From the NCBI RefSeq assembly GCF_009914755.1, contig NC_060926.1: a stretch of 64,000 nucleotides of DNA, one strand, 5' to 3'. The position numbers and the translations under genes were made by a program. The notes beneath the pieces are model-generated. The model was not told the origin of the DNA. It did not search any database and worked only from the letters and a program-made list of their open reading frames with translations. Origin of the DNA: the human T2T-CHM13v2.0 reference genome, Homo sapiens. This document shows positions 5,068 to 61,635 of this stretch, piece after piece; position 1 is the first letter of the stretch, and every line of letters starts with the position of its first letter.

Positions 5068-6752
5068 CGCTAAAGGAAAGAAACACAAGTAGCTTGGGGA
5101 TGGTTTAGAAAACAGAATTTTAAGATTAATACCCTGGTGCTTGTTAAAATTTTGATGACAATACCAAATTTCATTTGTTATGGTGTGCAAGTCTTGTAAA
5201 GGGAATCTGTTCTTTGTGATACTGCAAATGAACATTAAAAATGGTTGCAAACCTACATAAGTGGTCTCCCAGCATGGTTTCATCATGTCTTGGTTAAAAT
5301 TTTGGATAAGCTTTGGCTACAACTATTATCTCTGTAATCCAAGTTAGTGATGGATTCAGAAGTTTGGCTATTTTTTTCTCAACTGTAAATCAAACATGCT
5401 GTACCTGGGGACCATTTGTAGGACAGCAGTCATTTTAACTAAGGGCATTCCAAGTTGCAAGCCATTAAATCATCCTTGTCACACCTGTCTGACAAAGTAG
5501 CTATCAGCAAAATAACTGTCAGGTAGCATCAGGCACCACCTGCTCCTATGGTTCCAGGCTTCGCAGTGGTTCTAGAACTGCCTGTTTATAATCCTATTAA
5601 TTTATTGTTGCATTAAAGCAACAGCAACCAGAGTAATCATAATTGCTAACATTTGTGGAAGGCGCACTGACCCTGGTGCCACACACAGACTGTGTCTCCC
5701 TTGCCTTGGCTGTGAATCCCCATTTTCATAATGAGGCCCCATGACGACCTCTGTTTTAGACACAAAAAGATGGGGGGTTGGAGATCACTTGGTTGCTGTC
5801 ACACAGTTTGACAGCTGGAGCTTTGTATTTGAGCCCAGGCAGTATTAGTGAGTTGGGACAGATTTTGATTTTATTGTATTTGGGGGACACTTTTCATGGA
5901 GACTTGATGAGAGGCCTCATTGAAATGGAAAGATGAGAGAAAGTTTTGAGTTGAGTGAATCTAAACCTATTTAAGGTTACCATTTAATATGTTCTGGCGT
6001 CAAAGACCAACCTAGATCTATGAAACTGGGCTTCACAGTATGGTGAATTTAGCTGCTCTGCCCATGTGGATGAAAGCCACGTGAAGCTAGTATTGTAATT
6101 GTAGGGCTCTTTTCTATGTGATTATCTGATGCATGACAAGGAAGATTGAAAGACTTAAAGTTTATAAATGTGGTCATGATTTGTTTCTAGTGCATATCAG
6201 TTGGTCTTATTTGAAATACTTTCTCTAGGCATAAAGGAGTTTAAGGCAGAACCATAGACACTCTTTACTTTGATGTTCTCAGCCACCTTTGTCTTAGATG
6301 TGGAAAAAGATAGGGAAATCCGTGGTTGTTTTTGGTATTCAGGATTCTGAGATTCTTCTACTGGGAGAGACGTCGTCCATAGGGAATAAGAGAAAGAAAT
6401 GCTTGAGGTTGACCCCTTGAGAAGGGATCAACCTGACAGGTTCCAGTGCTGAGGGTCATAAGTGGGTGGGGAGATGTGAGACCTGCAGGTCTGGAATTGC
6501 CCACCTTTGTCCTGTGCCATTGGATCCTGGGTGGGCACCACACAGCTGGGCCCCCTGCACCTGTATTGGCTTGTCATGGCTTACCTTTAGAAATACTTTG
6601 GGGGAGGGCAAAGAGACAATGCAGGTTTCTGGTAGAATGCTGTGGTAGAGTAAGAATGTATCAAGTAGGTTATTTTGTTTGTAGGGCATTTATAACTTTC
6701 ATCCAAAAAATAAAATGAAAGGAATAAATGTTGGTTGAAAATGGGATTTCAA

Positions 6753-6880
6753 GGCCGGGCGCAGTGGCTTATGCCTGTAATCCCAGCACTTTGGGAGGCC
6801 GAGGCAGGAGGCTCACTTGAGCTTAGGGGTTTGAGACCAGCCTGGGCAATATAGTGAAACCTCATCTCCATAATTTAAAA

Positions 6881-6883
<3 letters not shown>
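6753..6883 (+). mobile_element. Alu left monomer (FLAM_C-like)
   Basis: GGCCGGGCGCAGTGGCTTATGCCTGTAATCCCAGCACTTTGGGAGGCC...CACTTGAGCTTAGG...GGCAATATAGTGAAACC; no right monomer follows. Confidence 0.85.

Positions 6884-6939
<56 letters not shown>
6884..6939 (+). repeat. (CA)n microsatellite with one GA interruption, in the Alu monomer tail
   Basis: Seen directly in the sequence. Confidence 0.97.
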
Positions 6940-9770: not shown

Positions 9771-10186
<416 letters not shown>

Positions 10187-13100
10187 AGTACTTCTTATTT
10201 TACCCATCTGAATTGTTTGTAGCACTTAAACCCACTGCCTAAGGGGCAGACCCTTGAGAAGTTAGCTTGGTAAATCAGATGTTCACCTTGGAGCAGAACA
10301 TTTATATTTCACAGGCTGATAGGAATTGGGTGTCAAGGTTATGGGGTCAACAGAATGAAACATTAAACATTCCTAATTCTTGTTTCTTTTATGTATGTGG
10401 GTCTTTGAACACACTTTGTCTCTGACAACATCACAGGAGGAAAAACACCCCAGCATCCCACAACTAGATGAATGTCTTGACGTGAATAAAAGCATTAACG
10501 TTAGAGCTAGGAAATCGTGTGACCACATGATTTCTATCTAAGGCTTCTCTCTAGCTGTCACCTTGAGAGTTTGTCCCACTGGGAGAAACCGGAGAAACAG
10601 AAAATATGTCCTTTGGAAACTCAAAGGGATTTTTAATCTCTAAAAACATGAGATTTTTGTCTCAAATACAAGCATATTTAATCCATCCTTTCATGTCCCC
10701 CATATATACATCCCACACCCTGCTTAATAGGAATGTGACTTCATTTTAGGGACTGGACAACTGAACAATCTGTCTTCCAGGGTCTGTTTCCCCTGAAACT
10801 GGTTTAGTGCTGCCAGGTAGGGAAGTCTGCTCTTCAAGGGTTGCCAGGTGGGGCAGCTGGGGATAGTAGGCTGGCACTGGGGAGGGTGGAGCTGGGTCTG
10901 TCAGCCCTGCCACCCATTGCTGTGGTTTATGCTCTGGGAAAGATGGTCATCTTCCTGCATGTACTGTGCTGCGATTCTCACGCCAGTATCTGCACCCCCT
11001 TGTTCTCAGCTCTGCACCATGTGGGTTTGACAGCCTTCATGAGGCAGGCAGACGTGTTGGCGTCATGTGGGACTCCTCGGCTGTGTCTTTCTGCCACTAA
11101 ATATGTTGTCGCTTTCCCCCTCCAGCATGTCATATACCTAGCTGCCTTTGGAGAGGCCTCTTGGCGCTCTCAGGAATAACTACCGAAAGAGCAGCTGTCT
11201 GTCAGCCTCCTCCAGAGCCGTCGGCTTGGGCTGTTGTCAACCTGTTGTTGGAGGAGTTCCCAGAGCAGCAGACTTAACTGCCATTGACATTTATAACTCG
11301 AAAGCCATATCACAGATGACTTTACATTCTTTGTAATCCTTTAAATAGCCTTCAGCGTATAAAGCACGTGGCCTCTACACGCTTTCTCCACCTTAGAGAG
11401 TGAGGAAATAGTTGGATCATCCTGAAGGTGGTGAAGTGGCTCACTGTTCTCCCCCACCCAGGTTATAAATCATCATCTCTCTTCTGACTTAGGTAGGAAG
11501 AAGTTGTCCTGGCTTTATGCTTAGATTTATGTGAGATCATACGAAGTCAGTTTAGATTGGGGAAGAGCATTAGCTTCTAAGCCCAAATGAGCCTTTACCT
11601 CTAGCAGCCACAGAGCCTGTGATAAGAGGGTGTCCCTGGGAATTGGATGTCAGGAAACGTTTCTCACATGGCCAGTGGATCTTGTGTCTGGTCATTTATG
11701 TCCTAGTTTCTAAGACAGCCTGTTTTTACATCTCATTTCTTAAGACATAACTGGAAGAGAAAGATGCCATGTTCCTGGTACAAGTAAAAATGAAAGCCAC
11801 CTCAGTGGATCTGAGAAACACATACTGCCAAAGAAAGTAGAGAAAGGGCAGAATTGGAATGGATTTAGTTACTGTGGGTCTGTCTAGACATTATTTGAGG
11901 GCTAGCGCTGGCTTCACTCACCTCTATGCCATGCGTGGCTAGTGCCAGTGGCTGGCACATAGCAGCATATGAGCTGAATGAGTATAAAGCAGTCTAATTT
12001 TTAGGCAGTAAAAGTTTTGTTTCATTTTATTTTTACCTGGGTAGCACAGACATTGAAATGTGTTAATCAACAAATGCAGAGTATGAGATTAAAAACTAAT
12101 GACATTTTCCTGTTGGCATCAAAGATGAATAATTTGAGACAAGTCATGGGAACTAGATGGCAAGTCTTAAACATGATAAAATAAAGCACCTTCATTGTCT
12201 CTGCTCAGATTTCTTCCTGTGCTTCCCAGGATGTTGGTCAGTCATATCTTATAAAAGGCCAATGCCTGATCTTGGCTGGGGTGCATAGCTTGCCTAGCGT
12301 TGGGCAGAAATAGGCCTCTTGAGCCGCTTGATGGTGACCATGGGCTTTGGCAAGATTGTTAACTGAGGAATGTTGTCACCTCTTCTGGTTGCTTTGCCTG
12401 TGATGCATGTCAGTATCTCATCTCAGTCCTCATTCTCAGAGCCTGGGAAGTGGCTCAGAATCCCCACGGTTGCACTCTAGATACCACTGCCCATTGACAG
12501 AGTGGCGAGGTGGGTGAAACCTTGCTTTCCTCCTGGCCCGTGGGCAGGGTGGGGCTGTGGGCCAGCCCATATCTCCCTACCAGGGAGTATGTGTCCGGGT
12601 GTGTGGAGCAGCAGAGCAGTGTTCCTTCACCTGCAGCGTCCAGGTCTGCTGCATCGAATCAGGATTCTGGTTCATGGCAAGAGATTTTCATGTTTCTTTG
12701 TCTTTCCCTAGAAAATGTCTAAATATTTTAAATATTTCAAATATCCACACAAGTACAGAGAGTGAATAGGGCAGGCTCTTATGTACCTACCCCTCCATAT
12801 TCCCTGCCTTTCTGATCTTGCTGCTAATATGTCTTATTAACTTTGGAAGATATTTGCTTTGGCTTGTGTTAAAATTACTGTTATTTTGTCCCTGGAAGTT
12901 CTGAAATGTGTGGTTGGCCTGGGACTCAGACCCATCAGGAACTCTAGTGTACCTCCTGTCTGAGGAAGGTTGGCACTACCTGGATCCACCCTTAGCTACG
13001 GGTTCCTTTGTTGTTAGGTCACTGCCATCTATTTCCCCTCTTAATTCAGTTTCAAGGAGCCATGAGTGTGTGAGAGAGAATCCCCTTCCTCTTTCCTCCC

Positions 13101-13791
13101 TCCTCTTCCGGCTAGTTCAGGACTCCCCTGTGATGGGGTAATTCAGTGGGTCCCACTTGGCGGAGCTGATGCTGTCTCCACATCCTGTTCCCTTCCCATA
13201 ATACTTCATCATAGTTGATGCCACTTTGTGAATAATTTCTCTTTTCTCTCCAAGCCAGGTTTGGGATTTCTCCATGTGTGTCCACCTCCCTGGAAGAAAG
13301 GGGTGGAGGCCGCTTTACTTTGTCTTTGGGGTTGAGAGTGATGGATAGATGGCATCTGTCAGGCAGGTGGAGGTGCTTCCTCAGGTTAATTAATGTGGGT
13401 AGGACCCACAGACAGGTTTCTCCTTCTTTCTTTTAACTGGCTATTTTCTGGGAGCAGGGTCCTGGATTATTTTATGATAGCTTACAATCATGTTGTTTTA
13501 TGACTAGTCATCCATTTAACTGTTTGTTTTGGCCAGATCCTCAGGATGGCTTATAGGAATTGGTGCCCATGGCTAGCACGTTGGAGGGGCTGGGGAAGGT
13601 TAAGACTACTGTTTACAGAGAGAGGTACCACCTTGAGAGGAAGGCTGAAGGGGGTTGCTGGGCCAGAACATGGAGGAGAGCCTCCTGAGAGTAAAGCAGG
13701 AAGGATTGGGAAGGGGGTGTGGAGGCCTTGGGAATTGGCTGAAGAGTTTTGGGACTCTGGGAAGGAGGAAAAATAGTTCTTAAAAATTCTA

Positions 13792-14068
13792 GGCTGGACA
13801 CAGTGGTTCACGCCTGTAATCCCAGCACTTTGGGAGGCCGGGGTGGGTGGATTGCGAGGTCAGGAGTTCGAGAACAGCCTGGCCAACGTGGTGAAACCCC
13901 TTCTCTGTTAAAAATACAAAAATTACCTGGGTGTGCTGGCATATGCCTGTAATTCTAGCTACTCAGGGAGGCTGAGGCAGGAGAATCGCTTGAACCCAGG
14001 AAACGGAGGTTGCAGTGAGCCGAGATCACACCACTGCACTCCAGCCTGGGTGACAGAGGGAGACTCTG

Positions 14069-14101
<33 letters not shown>
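13792..14101 (+). mobile_element. AluS (Sg-like), full length
   Basis: Alu dimer with a long A tail; TSD AAAAATTCTA on both sides. Confidence 0.9.

Positions 14102-31203: not shown

Positions 31204-31251
<48 letters not shown>
31204..31251 (+). repeat. (TG)n microsatellite, ~24 units
   Basis: Seen directly in the sequence. Confidence 0.97.
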
Positions 31252-31255
<4 letters not shown>

Positions 31256-46670: not shown

Positions 46671-50092
<3,422 letters not shown>

Positions 50093-51789
50093 TTATTTTT
50101 AACATAACAACATAAAACCCCGTAAAATGATCAACTTGATCTTTGGGTTGCCTCTTGCCCAGCCTTGGGAAAATGTTAAATCAGAGCTCTCTGGAAATTT
50201 GGGACAGCTCCAACTTCCTGAAAAATCAAGAATCGAGTTTTCCATGGAAAATGGTGGGAAGAGGTTGGATTTCCCCATACTTTCAGTCTGTTTCCCTCTT
50301 CTTCATTGTATTCTTGCACTTCTCCAGAGATAATCCTCTATTATTCAGTTCCAGTGTATCCAACTATTATCTTCCAGAGAGAGGGAAGATATCAGTAAGA
50401 CCTTGAGACTTGCTTGTCTCCTGAGTGATGGCGTAAGTGAGCCAGCTTGAATGCCGAGCTTCACTGGGCATAGAATGCTGATTTGCTGAAGTTGATGCGT
50501 GTGGGAAAATGTTTGTCTCATCTTCTCCTTGACATTGAAATACTGTTTTGCTGTTTGGAAGAGTCAGGTCTGCATAGGCCTTTTGGATATTTGCATTTTA
50601 TTTTCAGGAAGTCTTTGCTGCTGACTTGGGTAAAAGCATCACTTTGCATGCCCCTCACTTCATTTTCTTAGAGGAAAGAAAGGCAGCCAGATGACAGGCT
50701 GGTAACAAATTGGACTATTGGGCTGAATTTGCAGGTTGATAAATAGGTGGCCCAGGTGGTGAAATGAAGTGAAGTTGTGTTCAATCAGATACTGGACTGG
50801 CTTTGCAAACGTATTAAACACAGCCAGGTGAGGGAGACTTGGGAGCCCCCCCGCCCCCCACTGCTGCCTTTTAAATCTCATGTTCTAAAATGAAGAGGGT
50901 CAGTGTCAAAAATTCTGTTTCTCAAAATACTTGTGACACCAAATGTGGGTGTTTTTTTCCCCTCACACCAATGAATTATCCAACTCTCCAGGTAATAACT
51001 GGATGTCCTACAATTCAATTCTGACACTACCGGGAGTTATTGCATACCCTACAAGTTTAGGGCTCAGTCCCACAAAACTGCCCCCACTTCAGACACCAGT
51101 CACAAGTCCCATGTTGTTACCTGTACTTCTGACCAATTGGCTGTATATTGAGGGGTTCCTACAACCCCCTCTTCAATTTGATAATTTTCTACAATGGCTC
51201 ACAAAACTCAGAAACATTTACTTATATTTGCTGGTTTGTTGGAAAGGATATTACCAAGGATACAAATGTTCAGGTGAAGAAGTACATTTGATGAGGTCCA
51301 GAAGGGTCCTAAACACAGGAGCCTCTGTCCTTGTGGAGTTGGGGTATGCCACCTTCTTGGCGCATGGTTGTGTTCAGCAACCTGGAAGTTCCCTGAACCC
51401 TGTCATGTGGGACTTCATGGAGGCCTCATTATGTAGGGACGATCGATTAAATCAATGTCCACCCTTTCTTCCCTCCCCAGAGATTTTAGGGGTGGGACTG
51501 AAAGTTCCAATCCTCTAGTCATACAGTGGTCTTTGTGGTAGCCAGTCCCATCCCGAAGCTATTTAGGGACCTCAGCCACCAGTCAATAGCATACAAAAAG
51601 ACATTTCTCCCCACCCCACCCTATATTCCTAATACAAAGCTCCCTAAGGCCTTCATAATTTCCCAAGTGATAGGATGAGAAGAGTGTCTTTTGTTATAAT
51701 ATTTGGTCTTACTCCCTAGTTCCCTTCCAAAGAGCTTCCAAGACCCTTGAAAGCTCTATAGCTAGCTTGTCCAACCCATGGCCCAAGGG

Positions 51790-51888
51790 CTGGCTGCCTT
51801 TCTTTCCTCTAAGAAAATGAAGTGAGGGGCATGCAAAGTGATGCTTTTACCCAAGTCAGCAGCAAAGACTTCCTGAAAATAAAATGCA
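51790..51888 (-). repeat. Perfect 99-bp inverted duplicate of 50592-50690
   Basis: CTGGCTGCCTTTC...GAAAATAAAATGCA is the exact reverse complement of TGCATTTTATTTTC...GAAAGGCAGCCAG. Confidence 0.97.
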
Positions 51889-52095
51889 GGAGTGTTCAAT
51901 CTTTTGGCTTCCCTCGACCACATTGGAAGAAGAATTGTCTTGGGCCACACATAAAATACACTAACGATAGTTGATGAGCTACAAAAATTGCAAAACCAAT
52001 CTATGTTTTAAGAAAGTTTATCAGTTTGTTTTGGGCCGCATTCAAAGCTGTCCTTGGCTGCATTTAGCCCTTGGGCCATGGGTTGGACAAGCTAG
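51887..52095 (+). mobile_element. MER30 element
   Basis: CAGGAGTGTTCAATCTTTTGGCTTCCC..CACATTGGAAGAAGAATTGTCTTGGGCCACACATAAAATACACTAACGATAG...GGTTGGACAAGCTAG. Right TSD-like CTATAGAG is present; the left copy is missing. Confidence 0.9.
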
Positions 52096-52339
52096 CTATA
52101 GAGCTTTCAAGGGTCTTGGAAGCTCTTTGGAAGGGAACTAGGGAGTAAGACCAAATATTATAACAAAAGATACTCTTCTCATCCTATCACTTGGGAAATT
52201 ATGAAGGCCTTAGGGAGCTTTGTATTAGGAATATAGGGTGGGGTGGGGAGGAACAAATATTTATGTCGCAACCTAACAGCCAACGAACATTTTAAGTCAT
52301 TGAGGTAACTTAGTAAGCAAACCAGTACCCTTGATTTTA

Positions 52340-53460
52340 GTTTTAACTTTCTGATATGTATTATATCAGAAAAATACACATCCCACATGTAGAGCTTGAT
52401 GAGTTTCAAATGGACACCCACCTAACCACCAGATACACAGAGCATTCTCAGCCTTCAGAAGCCCCCTCATGTCCTCTCTTCCAGCTTCTACCTCTACAAT
52501 CCCCACGCCTCAATCCTGACTGTTTTAGCACTCTGTATAAACTCATAAAATGGAAACTATTTTATGTTTGCTTTCTTTTGCTCAGTATTATGTTTGTGAA
52601 ATTCATGTATATTGTTGCATGTAATCATTCTCATTGCTGTATAGTATTCCATTGTGTGCATATACCAAAATTTATTGATCCACCCATTCTACCGTAGATG
52701 GGCATTTAGATAATTTCCAGTTTTCAGCTACTAGGATTAGTGCTTCTGGAAACATTCTAGTATATGATATACACATTGCCATTGAATGGTGAACATAGGT
52801 ACACATTACAGTTGACTCTTGTCTTAGGCTGTTAGGTGTTGCTATAATACAACACCTGGGACTGGATAGCTTATAAAGAAAAGAGGTTTGTTTGTTTTTT
52901 TAGCTCACAGTTCTGGAGGCTGGGAAGTTCAAGACTGGGTGGCTACATCTGCTCAGCTTTTGGCGAGGGCCTCATGCTGCATCAAGACGTGGTGGAAAAA
53001 TGGAAGAGGAACAGGCATGTGTGGAGAGGGACCAAACATGAGAAGGGATTTGGCTTTATTAACAACCTGCTCTCAAGGAAGCTTATCCATTCTCAAGAGA
53101 TTGAGAACTCAGTCACTCTCTTGATACTGCATTAATCCTATTCATGAGGGATCCGGCTCCATGACCCAAACACATTGCAACTGAAGTCAGCTAAACTTCC
53201 TTGTAAGTTTCAGCCAGTAAATCCATATCCAAACCATAGCAAGTATATACTTAGAAGTGGGATTTTGGGATCATGGGGGTACACATGTTTAGCAATATGA
53301 GATACTGCCAGTTTTCCTAAGCAGTTGTATCAATATATAATTGTACCAGCAGTGCATGAGAGCTTCCTTCCCTCACATCCTCTCCATGGTTGGTATTTGT
53401 CTTTTTCACCTTAGCCATTCTGGTGAGTATGTAGTGGAATTAGTCTGTGGTTTTAATCCC
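52340..53460 (-). mobile_element. Old L1M fragment split by an MST LTR
   Basis: GTATAGTATTCCATTGTGTGCATATACC..GATGGGCATTTAGATAATTTCCAG.. continues after the LTR as AGTATATACTTAGAAGTGGGATT..TTAGCCATTCTGGTGAGT. Confidence 0.65.
52820..53241 (-). mobile_element. MST-family LTR
   Basis: TGTCTTAG..GTGTTGCTATAA..TTATAAAGAAAAGAGGTTT..GCTCACAGTTCTGGAGGCTGGGAAGTTCAAG...ATCCAAACCATAGCA. Confidence 0.8.
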
Positions 53461-54761
53461 ATCCTTTATTTTTGATTCTGAAGGACTTGGTTATCTGCTT
53501 GGTGCTTTTAATGGACTCTAATCTCCACTGTCTTTAGACGGTGACCTTAGAAAGGCATTATTATTAACTTTTCAGAAAGGCTGATGTGTTCCATTAGATT
53601 CCATCATCTCTCAGTGGTTCTGTAAGAAGCTGGTAAAGTCGGTGTCTTGTACTGAATTATATTCTGCTCTCACCATATGTTTGGTTTGTTGCAGTGAGAT
53701 CAGCAGAAATAAGGAACCAAGTCCAAATGAGGCGAGCTTAATTTGAGCTAGCAGAATTTATTAGTATTAAACCGGGACACTTATAGTTCTATACAGGGCC
53801 AGTCAGTGGGTGAAAGATGGCTAAGTCTGAAGCTTGTTCATGTTGTCGTCCTATGAGACCGAACTTGATTTTCAGGTTTTGAGTGGGAAATTCCCATGTT
53901 GTGATCCGATATACTTCCAGGGTAGAGAATGAAGAAGAATGAAGGTGAAGTAGTTTAAAACCACTTGACAACTGAAAGCACAGCCATTGTGTTTCTTCCT
54001 TACCATGGAGTCCAGGTTTTTCTGTTTGTTGAGGCAATTTCAGGATCTACAGAATTTACTGTGAAAATCTTGAAGGAAAATGAAAGCTTGACTAGGAAAT
54101 AGGGCTGGCACAGGAAGCATACTAAAGAAACCCAGGTTGCCCTGTGTGATGGCGAAATGTGATTCATCCTCGAGCTGTGTTCCTGAGACAGTTCACACCT
54201 GACATAGGAAGGTGATTAATGAAGATGAATTTGGTATCAATTTTTATGCTGCTACTTTTGCCATTTCTGCTCTACCTCTAGGGGTGATTATTGTGGTTTC
54301 TCAGGTGCCCAGTGAATGAAGCAGGTGAGAGTGGGATCCTGAGCGGGCTGGGGAGATGTGACTATTGCTGTGCTTGAGAGTTAAGAGCCATAGGAATAGA
54401 TTGGCGCTCTAGTCTGCACATGACAGGAATCTGGCTTAGCATAGGGACCCTTTTGTCAGAAAATAAAGCCATGATGGGCTTGGCAGAAGACTATCTTTAG
54501 TAAGATAACGGAATGCTGTTTCCTAGGGCTGTGGTGGCCAGTTTCTCATAAACTATCTCTGTGGATTGTAGATGGAGGTTGTTCCAGGAGGCTGGCAGGA
54601 TCCTTAGGGGCCCCATGTTGACCATACCTAGCATGGTGTTGGGTAAAAATTTGTTAAATGAAATGTGGTTTTTGGGTATGATTTTCATAACTTACGCTAT
54701 TGCTGGTATTGCAAATGTGACTTGAGCAGAAGGGATGAGTGGGGTCTGAGGGAGAGAGAGT

Positions 54762-58604: not shown

Positions 58605-59414
58605 TGTTGACAAAAAGAGTCAAACTCTGTAAAATATTTGAAGAGATTTATTCCGAGCCAAGTATGAGTGACCATGGCCCGTGACACAGCCCTCAGGAGG
58701 TCCTGAGAACATGTGCCGAAGGTGGTTGGGGTACAGCTTGGTTTTATGTATTTTAGGAAGGCAGGAGACATCAATCAAATACATTTAAGGAATGCATTGG
58801 TTTGGTTTAGAAAGGCAGGACAACTCAGAGTGGGGACTTCCAGGCTATAGGTAAATTTAAACATTTTCTGGTTGACAATTGGTTGAGTTTATCTAAAGAC
58901 CTGGGATTAATGGAAAGAAATATTCAGGTTAAGGTAAAGGATTGTGGAGACCAAGTTTTCTTGTGCCGAAGAATCTTTCAGCAGACTTCAGAGAGAGAGA
59001 GAGAAAGAGAGAGCAGGTTGTAAAATGTTGCTTATCTGACCTAAAAGGATGCCTGGCTCTTAGTTGATTATCTCCTGGGAAAGAAGGAAGGAAGGAAAAC
59101 AAAGCGGAAAGGGGATTCTCTATAGAATGTGGATTTTTCCCACAAGAGACTTTGCAGGACGATTTCAAGGTATGGCAAGGAAATATATTTTGGGGTAAAA
59201 CTTTTTTATTTTCTTGCTTGTTATGCCAGAGTCAGAGTGGAAAGTTAAGTCACTATATACAGCATCAAATAAAACCCATCTGGTGAGAATCTAGGCCCAG
59301 GGACAAACGCAGAAAAGGTGGGCACGTAAGATTGTAAGGTCCGGTTTGAGGAATAAAATTAGGACCTTTCAGATAGGAATTTGGGCAAGATAAAAAATCA
59401 GAGCTTAGTCCTCA
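58605..59414 (-). mobile_element. MER4-group LTR (MER4D/E-like), 3' LTR of a provirus
   Basis: The minus strand starts TGAGGACTAAGCTCTGATTTTT and ends ...TTTGACTCTTTTTGTCAACA. It is preceded on the minus strand by the polypurine tract AAGAGTGGGGGAC. Confidence 0.85.
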
Positions 59415-61635
59415 GTCCCCCACTCTTAGCCAAAAATCATTCCACAGAAGGCCAACAGCAGCAGGTCCCATGGCTCTAGGAACGCTCATTCCTGGAGTTG
59501 TCTGATCTGGTCATTTGTCCAGGTCCCACGGTGCTAGAAAGGCTTGTTCCTCTGATTTGATGGTAATAGTTTTAAATATTAGCGATTTGGATAATGGGGA
59601 GAGGACATGCTCTGACCTGAGGTAGTAGCCAATTCTTTAAGAGGTGAGATGGAGTCAGGCCTAGGGTTTAGTCTAAAACAATCCTGGATCAGATCTATTT
59701 TCTGAGCTATCATGATCTGGGTCTTTAATTGTGCCTTTCCTTCTGCTGTATCTGGCATAACATTTACAAGGAATGTCTAATGTTAATATAGTAACAAATA
59801 TCATAAAGATAGTGAAGATGTGGGCGTCCAGGGCTATAGGTAGAATCTGAGGGCAGTAAACAACCCAATCAGCCAGAAAAAAAAACCCCTGCGTGCATCA
59901 TTATATTCTTTGATTAGACTTACAATGTGTTTACCCTCCTTCTTAAGGGTTATTTGAATTCTATGATATATCTTACTTGAAAATTGTGGGACCAACATTT
60001 AATTAGAATTTAATAAATTTAATTTCTTTTCCAGCCAATTTATCTCCATAGGTATAGTATCCTGAGGAGGGTATAAATTAAATGCAAAAAGTGCCTGGTC
60101 CTTGGTGTTTAAATTGTTATAGACTTGTTAACAGTAGACAAATCTATTTTTCCCATCACTTTTGTATTGCACCATATACTAGTATTTGGGAGAGAAAAGC
60201 TTTTGTCACAGGAGAAGTCATATAATTCTGCAGTGTTATTTTTTCCTCCGCAGGACTCCCTATGGCTGAGGGCTTTAAGAGTCAAAAGACTTAGAGCCAA
60301 TTAATTGTTCTAGGCCATATAGGAATGGATGTGGACAGGCATGCATTACTTCTTAAAATTATTAAGTAAAAACTGACAATAAAACCAAAAGGCAAAGTTA
60401 AAAGACTGACTTATTTTTAACTTTTTTGTGTTAAGCTACTGTAAGCTTGGTTTCTGTTAGACTTATAGCAATTAGCTATACAAAACATAAACATTGTTCT
60501 GAAAAATAATTAAAAATATGTATATTATATATCTATATCTATATTTATCTTCACAACTTATAATTGGGAGTATTATAACCAAGAGGCTTTGTTACAAAGT
60601 ATTTTATCCTGTTAGTAAATATTTTCCCTTAATTTTATAGTAAGCAGAAAATTTTTATGGCTGGGGTGGATGCAAAAGTGACACATCATAGTTTAGAAGG
60701 CAACTGAACTTGTTTTACCAGCTGTTTAGGCATTTTTTGTACCCCCTTCTTGATTTGGAGGGTTTGATCTTGTCCTAATTTTATTCCTCAAACCGGACCT
60801 TACAATCTTACGTACCCACCTTTTCTGCATTTGTCCCTGGGCGTAGAGCAGGGTAGCTCCTATAGTTTTAGCAACAGAGCATTAGCAGTGAAACAGATCC
60901 AGGGCCAGTGGGATGCCAAATGAGGGAGATCCTTATCTCTAGTCTTCAGAATACCATGATTTTTGTTTTCTTGGAAGTAAAACATTTATATTTTGACAGT
61001 TATAAGAGTAATTTGTATGTTAGAACCGAAAAAGGAACCTCTTCCATTAGGGCACCAACTAAAAATGTGAAGAAAAATTATAATCTGCTACTTTCTAGAG
61101 GATTATTGTAGCCAAGAAATAATGCTTTAATCTGCACTCAAAAAATTAGGGCTGAAATCTAGTATTAAGTGTTACGTTTTACCCTCGAAACAGTTTTTAA
61201 GCTACCTTTTTTTATTAAAGAGAATATTATAGCAAGGCCAATTTATGTGCAAGGTTAGTTTTAGCCTTATTATGCTTGCCTGATGAATACTTATATAAAA
61301 TGCAGCAAGAAATTTTTTGACTGGCCATATAGACTCCTTTTAAAGTTGGTTTTGCTGAAGCTTTACCTAAAAATAGGCTATTTTAGTTTCAGTCTTGGTA
61401 AAATAACCAGTGTCTCCAATTGTTTAAAAAACTGTTATTGAACTTATACAGACAACTATATTGTCATAAAATTACAATCTGAATTTTGGAGAACTCAGGT
61501 AAATTTGCTTACAAAAACATACTTTACCCAAATAACTTAAAAGAAAAAGATTTTCTTGACTCTTCTTTAACCAGAGCAGCAGCTTTTAAAACAAGATGTT
61601 TGTTTAACTTGGAAATGCCATTTACAAACTGAACA
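59415..61635 (-). mobile_element. MER4-group ERV1 internal sequence (non-coding, 5' part and 5' LTR absent)
   Basis: Contiguous with the PPT and LTR. AT-rich MER4-int-like motifs (GGCTGAGGGCTTTAAGAGTCAAAAGACTTA, TAGGGCTGAAATCTAGTAT, CTTTAACCAGAGCAGCAGC). No gag/pol/env ORF. Confidence 0.72.

What the first reader, a model, noticed from the sequence alone, without database searches (positions are those of the whole stretch)
50592..52250. Three-junction templated rearrangement: a 185-bp near-perfect inverted repeat enclosing a perfect 99-bp inverted copy from ~1.1 kb upstream
Seen: at 51607 the MER21 LTR switches to an inverted copy of 52066-52250 (184/185 identical). Through a 2-bp microhomology (CT, 51790-51791) it then becomes a perfect inverted copy of unique sequence 50592-50690. 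Through a second 2-bp microhomology (CA, 51887-51888) it returns to the first bases of MER30. The MER30 left TSD (right copy CTATAGAG) is missing, implying a small deletion. The host repeats are ancient and diverged, yet the copies are almost identical, so either the event is recent or the arms are being homogenised. Inference: this is a serial template-switch scar of the FoSTeS/MMBIR or polymerase-theta type. If transcribed it gives two overlapping long duplexes (185 bp and 99 bp), a non-Alu dsRNA substrate for ADAR, Dicer or MDA5. It could also mediate recurrent micro-inversion of the 274-bp spacer.
Basis: partly seen in the sequence, partly recalled or inferred. Interest (0 to 1): 0.82.

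Follow-up and report, generated by a model that had tools for sequence, protein, structure and literature searches.

The report
Young templated inverted insertion, MGAT5 intron
A roughly 280-base patch in an intron of the human MGAT5 gene was stitched together from backward copies of two nearby stretches of DNA, a recent copying accident of a well-known kind with no sign of a function.

Summary
Window 51607-51791 is an inverted copy of 52066-52250 (184 of 185 identical). Window 51790-51888 is a perfect inverted copy of 50592-50690 (99 of 99), a sequence otherwise unique in this assembly. The copies join through a shared CT, and the second joins the first two bases (CA) of a hAT-type transposon. 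That transposon has lost its left target-site duplication.

Other genomic copies of the host LTR-like repeat run straight across the break. About 12 bases (range 9-15) were therefore lost and 278 gained. Family copies are only 66-86% alike, so the event is young. One difference in 282 bases fits under about 10-15 million years and is improbable for an age shared with Old World monkeys, unless gene conversion acted.

The best reading is one germline serial template-switch event of the MMBIR/FoSTeS type. The copied tracts (99 and 185 bases) are far longer than the polymerase-theta insertions described in the passages I read.

The predicted RNA hairpin is very strong, but it is intronic and shorter than 300 bp. 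The two duplexes cross, so a nested fold cannot hold both. Editing, small RNAs, spacer inversion, polymorphism and ape orthologues could not be tested here. This is an ordinary mechanism and a clean example.

The parts
50592..50690 (+). Source 'a': 99 nt of single-copy intronic sequence, the template of the second copied tract.
   Evidence: It is 99 of 99 complementary to 51790-51888. A genome search with 50540-50760 found only itself and the inverted copy, with 2 of 2 candidates scored.
50933..51608 (+). It ends at junction J1. The start coordinate is approximate.
   Evidence: BLAST to 5 other genomic copies gives 65-78% identity over 50913-51603.
51607..51791 (-). Copy b': the inverted copy of 52066-52250. 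It contains an inverted orphan of the last 30 bases of the transposon, the target-site duplication and 147 bases of LTR flank.
   Evidence: 184 of 185 bases are identical to the reverse complement of the source; the mismatch is at 51686.
51607..51608 (.). Junction J1 (LTR to b'): CT is possibly shared by both partners. This is inferred, not directly visible, because the ancestral continuation has been deleted.
   Evidence: In the aligned family copies the bases that line up with 51607-51608 are followed by 4-5 further bases and then the stretch that lines up with the target-site duplication.
51686..51686 (.). The only difference between the 185-nt arms. The copy carries the changed base.
   Evidence: The source arm has T at 52171, as do 4 of 5 aligned family copies. 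The copy has the equivalent of C.
51790..51888 (-). Copy a': the perfect inverted copy of 50592-50690.
   Evidence: 99 of 99.
51790..51791 (.). Junction J2 (b' to a'): 2-bp microhomology CT.
   Evidence: Both templates read CT at this point and diverge immediately on either side.
51887..51888 (.). Junction J3 (a' to transposon): 2-bp microhomology CA, which is the first two bases of the transposon.
   Evidence: Eleven other copies aligned, and 25 of 39 family hits start at window 51886-51887.
51887..52095 (+). It is intact at both ends.
   Evidence: Thirty-nine other genomic copies at 80-85% identity were scored, out of 2285 candidates of which 40 were scored. The ends are defined by alignment to 11 copies.
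52096..52103 (+). Right target-site duplication CTATAGAG. The left copy is absent.
   Evidence: The stretch aligns to an uninterrupted stretch in other LTR copies.
51792..52065 (.). The 274-nt spacer between the 185-nt arms: copy a' plus the first 179 bases of the transposon.
52066..52250 (+). Source 'b': the template of the first copied tract. It comprises the last 30 bases of the transposon, the target-site duplication and the LTR flank up to a G-rich run.
   Evidence: It is continuous with the rest of the transposon and of the LTR.
52096..52289 (+). Right part of the same LTR-like repeat. The end coordinate is approximate.
   Evidence: It is colinear with the left part in 5 of 5 copies found through the arm and in 10 of 29 copies found through the left flank.

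Best explanation
This is the scar of one germline mutational event, a serial template switch of the MMBIR/FoSTeS type.

Before the event, an old hAT-type transposon sat inside an old LTR-like repeat in an MGAT5 intron, flanked by its 8-bp target-site duplication. I describe the event for a growing + strand; the mirror description for the - strand is equally valid.
1. Synthesis left its template at about 51608.
2. The strand re-primed through 2 bases on the opposite-polarity strand about 640 bases ahead, and copied 185 bases backwards (52250 to 52066).
3. It let go, re-primed through CT about 1.1 kb behind, and copied 99 bases backwards (50690 to 50592).
4. It let go again and re-primed through CA at the first bases of the transposon, skipping about 12 bases (4-5 of LTR plus the left target-site duplication).

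The net result is 278 new bases and a length gain of about 266 bp.

The event is recent: probably under about 10-15 million years, and possibly human-specific or polymorphic. It has no selected function. Its by-products are a 185-bp inverted repeat with a 274-bp spacer in DNA and a very stable hairpin in the MGAT5 pre-mRNA.

Shown: the sequence relationships, the junction positions, the microhomology at J2 and J3, the polarity of copying, and the youth of the copies relative to the host repeats.
Inferred: the microhomology at J1, the size of the deletion, that it was a single event, that it was replicative, the age, and neutrality.
For: - Two inverted copies with 1 mismatch in 185 and 0 in 99.
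- 2-bp overlaps at J2 and J3.
- Both templates lie in cis within 1.3 kb, one on each side of the insertion point.
- The LTR family is colinear across the break. For example, L004 position 1490 aligns to window 51601 and position 1501 to window 52095. Colinearity holds in 5 of 5 and 10 of 29 copies, so only about 12 bases are missing.
- The transposon ends and target-site duplications were defined on 11 other copies.
- Host-family copies are 66-86% alike, against 99.5-100% for the arms.
- Poisson check: with one difference in 282 bases, P(1 or fewer) is 0.45 at 6.5 My, 0.08 at 15 My and 0.003 at 29 My. This uses a rate of 0.5e-9 per base per year, which I recalled together with the split times.
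- Literature passages: inverted templated insertions near their template, flanked by microhomologies, are the stated MMBIR signature. They occur as germline variants, and multi-template events are mentioned (PMC8421209).
- Theta-templated insertions are quoted as 2-35 bp and 5-15 bp (PMC7454005), much shorter than the tracts here.
Against: - No orthologue, second human assembly or read data could be examined. The ancestral allele, the age and even presence in other humans are all inferred.
- J1 microhomology and deletion size rest on diverged family copies (65-79% identity) that differ among themselves by a 2-base indel at exactly that point.
- 19 of 29 copies fetched through the left flank had no BLAST match to the right flank. 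The family is therefore heterogeneous, and colinearity rests on 14 distinct loci.
- In either replication direction one template lies ahead of the fork and one behind. A simple single-fork picture does not explain that.
- Nothing in the sequence separates replication-based switching from break repair by long-tract synthesis.
- The single mismatch could be a copying error or a later mutation, so it dates nothing precisely.
Confidence: 0.75

Rival explanations
1. A double-strand break at or next to the left end of the transposon was repaired by polymerase-theta or synthesis-dependent microhomology-mediated end joining, with two rounds of templated synthesis before the ends were joined.
For: - There are 2-bp microhomologies at the start and end of each copied tract, and a small deletion at the site.
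- Theta insertions are described as started and finished with microhomology, with templates adjacent or many kb away (PMC7454005).
Against: - The tracts of 99 and 185 bases are 3-10 times the 2-35 bp and 5-15 bp ranges given in the same passages.
- Each end would have had to copy the strand that resection removes on the other side of the break. This is my inference from the geometry.
Confidence: 0.12
2. There were two or more separate events: first a fold-back type inverted duplication of 52066-52250 next to the transposon, and later an insertion of the inverted 99-mer exactly at that junction.
For: Each tract alone is a known kind of event. The 99-mer has 0 differences and the 185-mer has 1, which allows slightly different ages.
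Against: - The second event would have had to hit the exact junction of the first.
- Both pairs are nearly identical, so both would be recent.
- Every junction shows the same 2-bp style.
Confidence: 0.04
3. The event is old, and both arm pairs have been kept alike by gene conversion between the inverted copies.
For: Arm-to-arm conversion is well known for large palindromes (recalled, not checked here).
Against: - Two independent pairs, one only 99 bases long and 1.1 kb apart, would both have to be homogenised.
- Arms of 99-185 bases are at or below the homology length usually thought necessary (recalled).
- Recency explains both pairs at once.
Confidence: 0.04
4. The structure is an assembly artefact, or a change that arose in the cultured cell line behind this assembly.
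For: Only this one assembly could be examined. Fold-back chimeras do occur in long-read libraries (recalled).
Against: - A read chimera would give a simple fold-back, not three junctions that include a unique segment from 1.1 kb upstream.
- The one mismatch between the arms argues against a purely computational duplication.
- No check of reads was possible.
Confidence: 0.03

Closest known systems
MMBIR / FoSTeS complex rearrangements and 'MMB-templated insertions' (PMC8421209, passages read; the original FoSTeS and MMBIR papers are recalled only)
   Same: Inverted copies of nearby sequence are inserted at one point with microhomology at every junction. There is more than one template switch in cis and a small loss at the site. 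The kind is known from germline variants.
   Different: The detection tool in that paper looks only for templates within 100 bp and for inserts up to read length. Here the templates lie 0.46 and 1.1 kb away on opposite sides, and the tracts are 185 and 99 bases. Classic FoSTeS cases involve kb-Mb copy-number changes.
Short-range template-switch mutations in great apes, which can create perfect hairpins and new miRNA genes (PMC7954356; PMC10710096; passages read)
   Same: [quoted passage not shown] The product is a hairpin transcribed with the host gene.
   Different: Those events have one template and two switch points. Their median copied length is 12 nt with a maximum of 128, and the hairpin stems counted as miRNA-like are 30-55 bases. 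Here there are two templates, three junctions, 99 and 185 bases copied, and a stem far too long for a miRNA precursor.
Polymerase-theta templated insertions (PMC7454005, passages read)
   Same: Microhomology-primed copying of flanking sequence into a repair junction, including snap-back (inverted) copies.
   Different: The quoted sizes are 2-35 bp and 5-15 bp, several-fold shorter than here.
Long, highly paired intramolecular dsRNAs of the human genome (PMC11838218; passages and section 10 read)
   Same: A near-perfect inverted repeat inside a gene, predicted to fold into a long duplex that splicing removes.
   Different: That survey counts 31,017 predictions with over 96% pairing and 2,018 that are also over 300 bp, mostly between inverted LINEs. 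This one is 185 bp and is not made of two repeat insertions but of a local copying event. MGAT5 is not mentioned in the main text (0 occurrences). I did not look at its supplements.

Membership tests
MMBIR/FoSTeS-type templated rearrangement | Two or more novel junctions in cis, with inserted sequence copied from nearby templates | tested here: met
   There are three junctions and two inverted templates, 0.46 kb downstream and 1.1 kb upstream.
MMBIR/FoSTeS-type templated rearrangement | Microhomology of a few bases at each junction | tested here: met
   J2 shares CT and J3 shares CA, both read directly. CT at J1 is only inferred from family copies.
MMBIR/FoSTeS-type templated rearrangement | Error-prone synthesis leaving extra point changes in or near the copied tracts | tested here: inconclusive
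   There is one change in 282 copied bases, and it lies on the copy. It cannot be told apart from a later mutation.
MMBIR/FoSTeS-type templated rearrangement | Origin in replication or break-induced replication (dependence on the replicative polymerase and its accessory subunits) | not testable with these tools
   This needs genetics or mutation-accumulation data.
Polymerase-theta end-joining scar | Templated insertion started and ended with microhomology | tested here: met
Polymerase-theta end-joining scar | Insertion length in the range described for theta (2-35 bp in the passages read) | tested here: not met
   The tracts are 99 and 185 bases, against the ranges in PMC7454005.
Short-range template-switch mutation (single inverted fragment) | One template close to the target, two switch points, and a copied length of tens of bases | tested here: not met
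   There are two templates, three junctions, and 99 and 185 bases copied from up to 1.1 kb away. The published maximum is 128 nt.
Fold-back inverted duplication | An inverted copy directly continuous with its source through a short spacer, made from one snapped-back end | tested here: not met
   The 185-nt copy is separated from its source by a foreign 97-base tract plus 179 bases, and it is attached to the far side of the break.
hAT-type non-autonomous transposon (the element at 51887-52095) | Family-wide sharp ends and 8-bp target-site duplications | tested here: met
   The ends are shared with 11 aligned copies, most of which carry 8-bp duplications. In this copy only the right one survives. 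The family name was not tested because no repeat library was available.

The most novel reading that the evidence does not exclude
The break that started the rearrangement was not random. It was made exactly at the terminus of the ancient hAT-type transposon. The transposon side is intact to its first base, while the flank lost about 12 bases including the target-site duplication. That asymmetry is what one-ended cleavage by a hAT-like transposase, leaving a processed flank, would produce (chemistry recalled, not checked). If so, some transposase-derived nuclease still cut such ends in the recent hominid germline. A milder novel reading is that the event gave birth to a young, long hairpin RNA in MGAT5 that is edited or diced and affects the host gene.
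Probability: 0.02. Interest if true: 0.8.

Novelty: new member of a known kind. Interest (0 to 1): 0.3.

Why it matters
This is a clean, fully resolvable example of a germline multi-template switch. Its size (99 and 185 bases) falls between the short template-switch mutations catalogued in apes (median 12, maximum 128 nt) and the kb-Mb rearrangements of genomic disorders. Events of this size are easily missed by tools built for either extreme.

If it proves to be human-specific or polymorphic, it would be a natural test case in three ways:
- how fast perfect inverted repeats decay or flip;
- whether a 185-bp perfect intronic duplex is hyper-edited;
- which polymerase makes tracts of this length.

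As it stands, nothing suggests a function or a new mechanism.

Tried and rejected
1. Chance. Rejected: the expectation is about 1e-53, and 142 kb of other loci hold no comparable pair.

2. Insert copied from a spliced RNA (segment a joined to segment b, then inserted backwards). Rejected: read, the implied intron would begin and end AG..TT, GA..TA or AT..AG in the sense direction, and begin with AA, TA or CT in the antisense direction. None is a standard splice pair.

3. Transposon hairpin stalling the fork at its base. Not supported: the 209-base element folded as single-stranded DNA is no more stable than shuffles on either strand (z +1.81 and +1.73; 195 and 199 of 200 shuffles fold at least as well).

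4. A known RNA family in 49500-53500. There were 0 Rfam matches at E up to 1.

5. Copies of the 99-mer elsewhere in the genome. None was found.

6. Print record.
   - The search 'MGAT5' + 'inverted repeat' + 'intron' gave 2 papers, both unrelated by title and abstract listing.
   - MGAT5 occurs 0 times in the main text of the dsRNA survey.
   - I searched the supplements of the great-ape template-switch paper for numbers beginning 134212 to 134216. That position in the other human reference was estimated from a recalled gene coordinate, so the estimate may be wrong. There were 0 occurrences in the 6 files held. Their method would not be expected to catch an insert of this size anyway.

8. A second possible history. 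The primary product could have been the flipped isomer: a 364-base inverted copy of transposon plus flank, then a direct copy of the 99-mer. A later flip of the spacer would then give the present form. This also needs three junctions but adds a step. I kept it as possible but less economical.
Full report
**What is there**

The window is intronic for the selected MGAT5 transcript, which lies on the + strand with no exon in the window (hub annotation).

- The repeat finder on 50000-53000 gives two inverted pairs: 51604-51791 with 52066-52253 (188 nt, 99%), and 50592-50690 with 51790-51888 (99 nt, 100%).
- Base-by-base comparison shows a 185-nt core, 51607-51791 against 52066-52250, with one mismatch at 51686. 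The three extra bases include a second mismatch at 51606. The 99-mer is perfect.
- The two copies overlap by CT (51790-51791). At that point both templates read CT and diverge on either side.
- The 99-mer copy ends in CA (51887-51888), which is also the start of the next element.

**More than chance**

- A perfect 99-nt inverted pair in 3 kb is expected about 1e-53 times.
- As an empirical background I scanned 45 other loci of the same genome (142,247 bases) that were fetched for other reasons. The only inverted pairs of 40 nt or more at 95% or better were five overlapping offset alignments of one pair in L013. I take them for a simple repeat but did not inspect them. The next best pair was 88%.
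- In the 64-kb window the only other pairs at 95% or better are one at 59290-59365 / 60772-60847 and a set of offset hits at 6878-6939 / 31204-31255.

**The host repeats**

*The transposon.*
- A genome search with 51860-52130 scored 40 of 2285 candidates. It returned 39 other copies at 80-85% identity, of which 25 begin at query base 27-28, which is window 51886-51887.
- Aligned to 11 of them, the element runs from 51887 to 52095. Two of the 11, L011 and L012, are identical copies.
- Most copies carry similar 8-bp stretches on both sides, as hAT elements do. Here only the right one is present (CTATAGAG, 52096-52103). The eight bases to the left of 51887 belong to the 99-mer copy.
No repeat library was available to test it.

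*The LTR-like repeat.*
- The sequence around the transposon belongs to a second, older family.
- The arm query found 20 other hits at 73-85%, and 18 hits at 86-94% to the transposon's first bases (40 of 212 candidates scored).
- In all 5 loci kept from that search, the family runs colinearly from the left of the break to the right of the transposon. For example, L004 position 1490 aligns to window 51601 and position 1501 to window 52095.
- A second search with the left flank (51440-51606) gave 29 other loci. Ten have a colinear match to the right flank and 19 have none at E 1e-3. One of the ten is the same place as L004, so colinearity rests on 14 distinct loci. The family is evidently heterogeneous in its right part.
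- The family extends from about 50933 to about 52289.

**Size of the loss**

- In copies whose two flanks align almost to the break, 11-18 bases lie between the alignments (L022, L023, L025, L038).
- In the multiple alignments, the window's left flank can be followed to 51608. The other copies then carry 4-5 more bases, followed by a stretch that lines up with the 8-bp duplication.
- The event therefore removed about 12 bases. I give a range of 9-15, because the copies differ by a 2-base indel at exactly this point.
- It added 51609-51886, which is 278 bases, for a net gain of about 266 bp.
- CT at 51607-51608 is probably shared between the old flank and the start of the 185-nt copy, which would give a third 2-bp microhomology. 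This and the deletion size are inferences from copies only 65-79% identical to the window.

**Direction of copying**

- The right arm is continuous with the rest of the transposon and of the LTR.
- The 99-mer source lies in continuous single-copy sequence: a search with 50540-50760 found only itself and the inverted copy.
- The middle segments are bounded by junctions on both sides. They are the copies.
- At the one mismatch the source arm has T at 52171, as do 4 of 5 aligned family copies, so the copy carries the change.

**Age**

- Host-family copies are 66-86% alike, while the arms are 99.5% and 100% alike.
- I used a rate of 0.5e-9 per base per year and split times from memory. With one difference in 282 bases, P(1 or fewer) is 0.97 at 1 My, 0.45 at 6.5 My, 0.28 at 9 My, 0.08 at 15 My and 0.003 at 29 My. 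At twice the rate the values are 0.12 at 6.5 My and 0.002 at 15 My.
- Barring gene conversion, the event is younger than the ape / Old World monkey split. It is most likely of African-ape age or younger.
- It could be polymorphic or private, because the one mismatch could be a copying error. No second human genome, read set or ape genome was within reach of the tools, so this remains open.

**Mechanism**

The anatomy has these features:
- three junctions;
- 2-bp microhomologies;
- two inverted templates within 1.3 kb in cis, one on each side;
- a small loss at the site;
- long copied tracts.

This matches the stated signature of MMBIR-type templated insertions: an insertion in inverted orientation near its template, flanked by microhomologies, present as germline variants, with multi-template events mentioned (PMC8421209, passages).

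Polymerase-theta joining leaves the same style of junction. However, the passages I read give 2-35 bp and 5-15 bp for its insertions (PMC7454005), so tracts of 99 and 185 bases point to a more processive polymerase.

Whichever strand one follows, one switch goes to the opposite-polarity strand ahead of the point of departure and the other goes behind it. The inserted block as a whole is the reverse complement of a-joined-to-b. I cannot tell the direction of replication. I also cannot exclude that the first product was the flipped isomer, which likewise has three junctions but needs one more step.

**Ideas tested and dropped**

- *A spliced-RNA template.* The implied intron borders are not a standard splice pair in either direction (read).
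- *A transposon hairpin stalling the fork.* The element folded as single-stranded DNA is no more stable than shuffles (z +1.81 and +1.73).
- *A known structured RNA.* There were 0 Rfam matches in 49500-53500 at E up to 1.

**The coincidence at J3**

- The junction falls exactly on the transposon's first bases. The element is intact, while the flank lost about 12 bases.
- With repeat boundaries every few hundred bases (my estimate) and six endpoints that could have coincided with something, this is expected in a few percent of such events.
- I keep transposon-end-specific cleavage as the most novel reading, at about 2%.

**RNA and DNA consequences**

- As RNA, 51590-52270 folds into an almost uninterrupted stem: -442.9 kcal/mol against a shuffle mean of -185.3, z -34.7, with 0 of 20 shuffles as good.
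- Folding 50570-52275 as one molecule gives 187 pairs between the long arms and 0 between the 99-mers.
- The 99-mer duplex forms in full (99 pairs) only when the right arm is left out.
- Taken alone, the stems are worth -372.6 and -184.8 kcal/mol.
- The two duplexes cross in the order a, b', a', b, so they cannot both sit in a nested fold. During transcription the 99-bp duplex could form first. That is my inference.
- The structure is intronic and 185 bp long. A genome-wide survey quotes over 300 bp as favouring MDA5. It counts 31,017 predicted duplexes with over 96% pairing and notes that exon-intron duplexes are removed by splicing (PMC11838218, section 10).
- Nuclear editing by ADAR is plausible. 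An MDA5 role is unlikely. Neither could be tested.
- Template switching is already known to create perfect intronic hairpins and some primate miRNA genes, but with stems of 30-55 bases (PMC10710096, passages) and copied lengths of median 12 and maximum 128 nt (PMC7954356, passages).
- At the DNA level, I recall that a 274-bp spacer should make the inverted repeat much less fragile than a true palindrome, and that 185 bases is near the lower limit for efficient recombination. I checked neither point.

**Verdict**

The thing is a young, probably neutral, three-junction templated insertion of a known mutational kind, unusually neat and of intermediate size. The functional suggestions are untested and, for MDA5, unlikely.

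The print searches were as follows:
- MGAT5 with 'inverted repeat' and 'intron' gave 2 unrelated papers.
- MGAT5 occurs 0 times in the main text of the dsRNA survey.
- A number search in the supplements of the ape template-switch paper, using a recalled coordinate, gave 0 hits.

I did not open the supplements of the other papers, and they may list the locus.

Noticed in passing
window 59290-59365 and 60772-60847: A second inverted pair in the same intron: 76 nt, 96% complementary, 1406 nt apart. The 76-nt unit is a multi-copy family with sharp ends: 38 other genome hits at 77-87%, nearly all covering the same query bases 21-96. The two local copies are much more alike than any other pair. They could be the two ends of one element, or a younger local inverted duplication.
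   Followed up: partly
window 52236-52251 (and its copy at 51607-51621): A G-rich run (GGG T GGGG T GGGG A GG) lies exactly where the first copied tract begins. This LTR copy has 8 more bases here than the 5 aligned family copies. The extra bases are present in both arms, so they predate or accompany the event. Whether the run helped to expose the template is unknown.
   Followed up: no
window 9879-10197 and 13781-14099; also 6738-6816 with 10123-10201: Ordinary diverged inverted repeat pairs (134-142 nt at 80-83%, and 79 nt at 77%), presumably Alu elements in opposite orientation. They make a useful contrast to the 99.5-100% arms of the finding.
   Followed up: no
window 6878-6939 and 31204-31255: Several offset inverted matches of 49-52 nt at 96-98%, 24 kb apart. 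The staggered offsets suggest complementary simple repeats.
   Followed up: no
loci L024, L027, L028, L031-L037, L039-L041, L043-L046, L049, L050: Nineteen of the 29 genomic copies that match the LTR's left flank (window 51500-51606) have no detectable match to its right flank (52096-52200) within 1.5 kb. The family seems to have subfamilies that differ in their 3' part, or many truncated copies.
   Followed up: no
loci L011 (C16:35.06 Mb) and L012 (C6:0.11 Mb): These two copies of the hAT-type element, with their flanks, are identical in the aligned stretch. The two loci probably lie in a recent segmental duplication.
   Followed up: no
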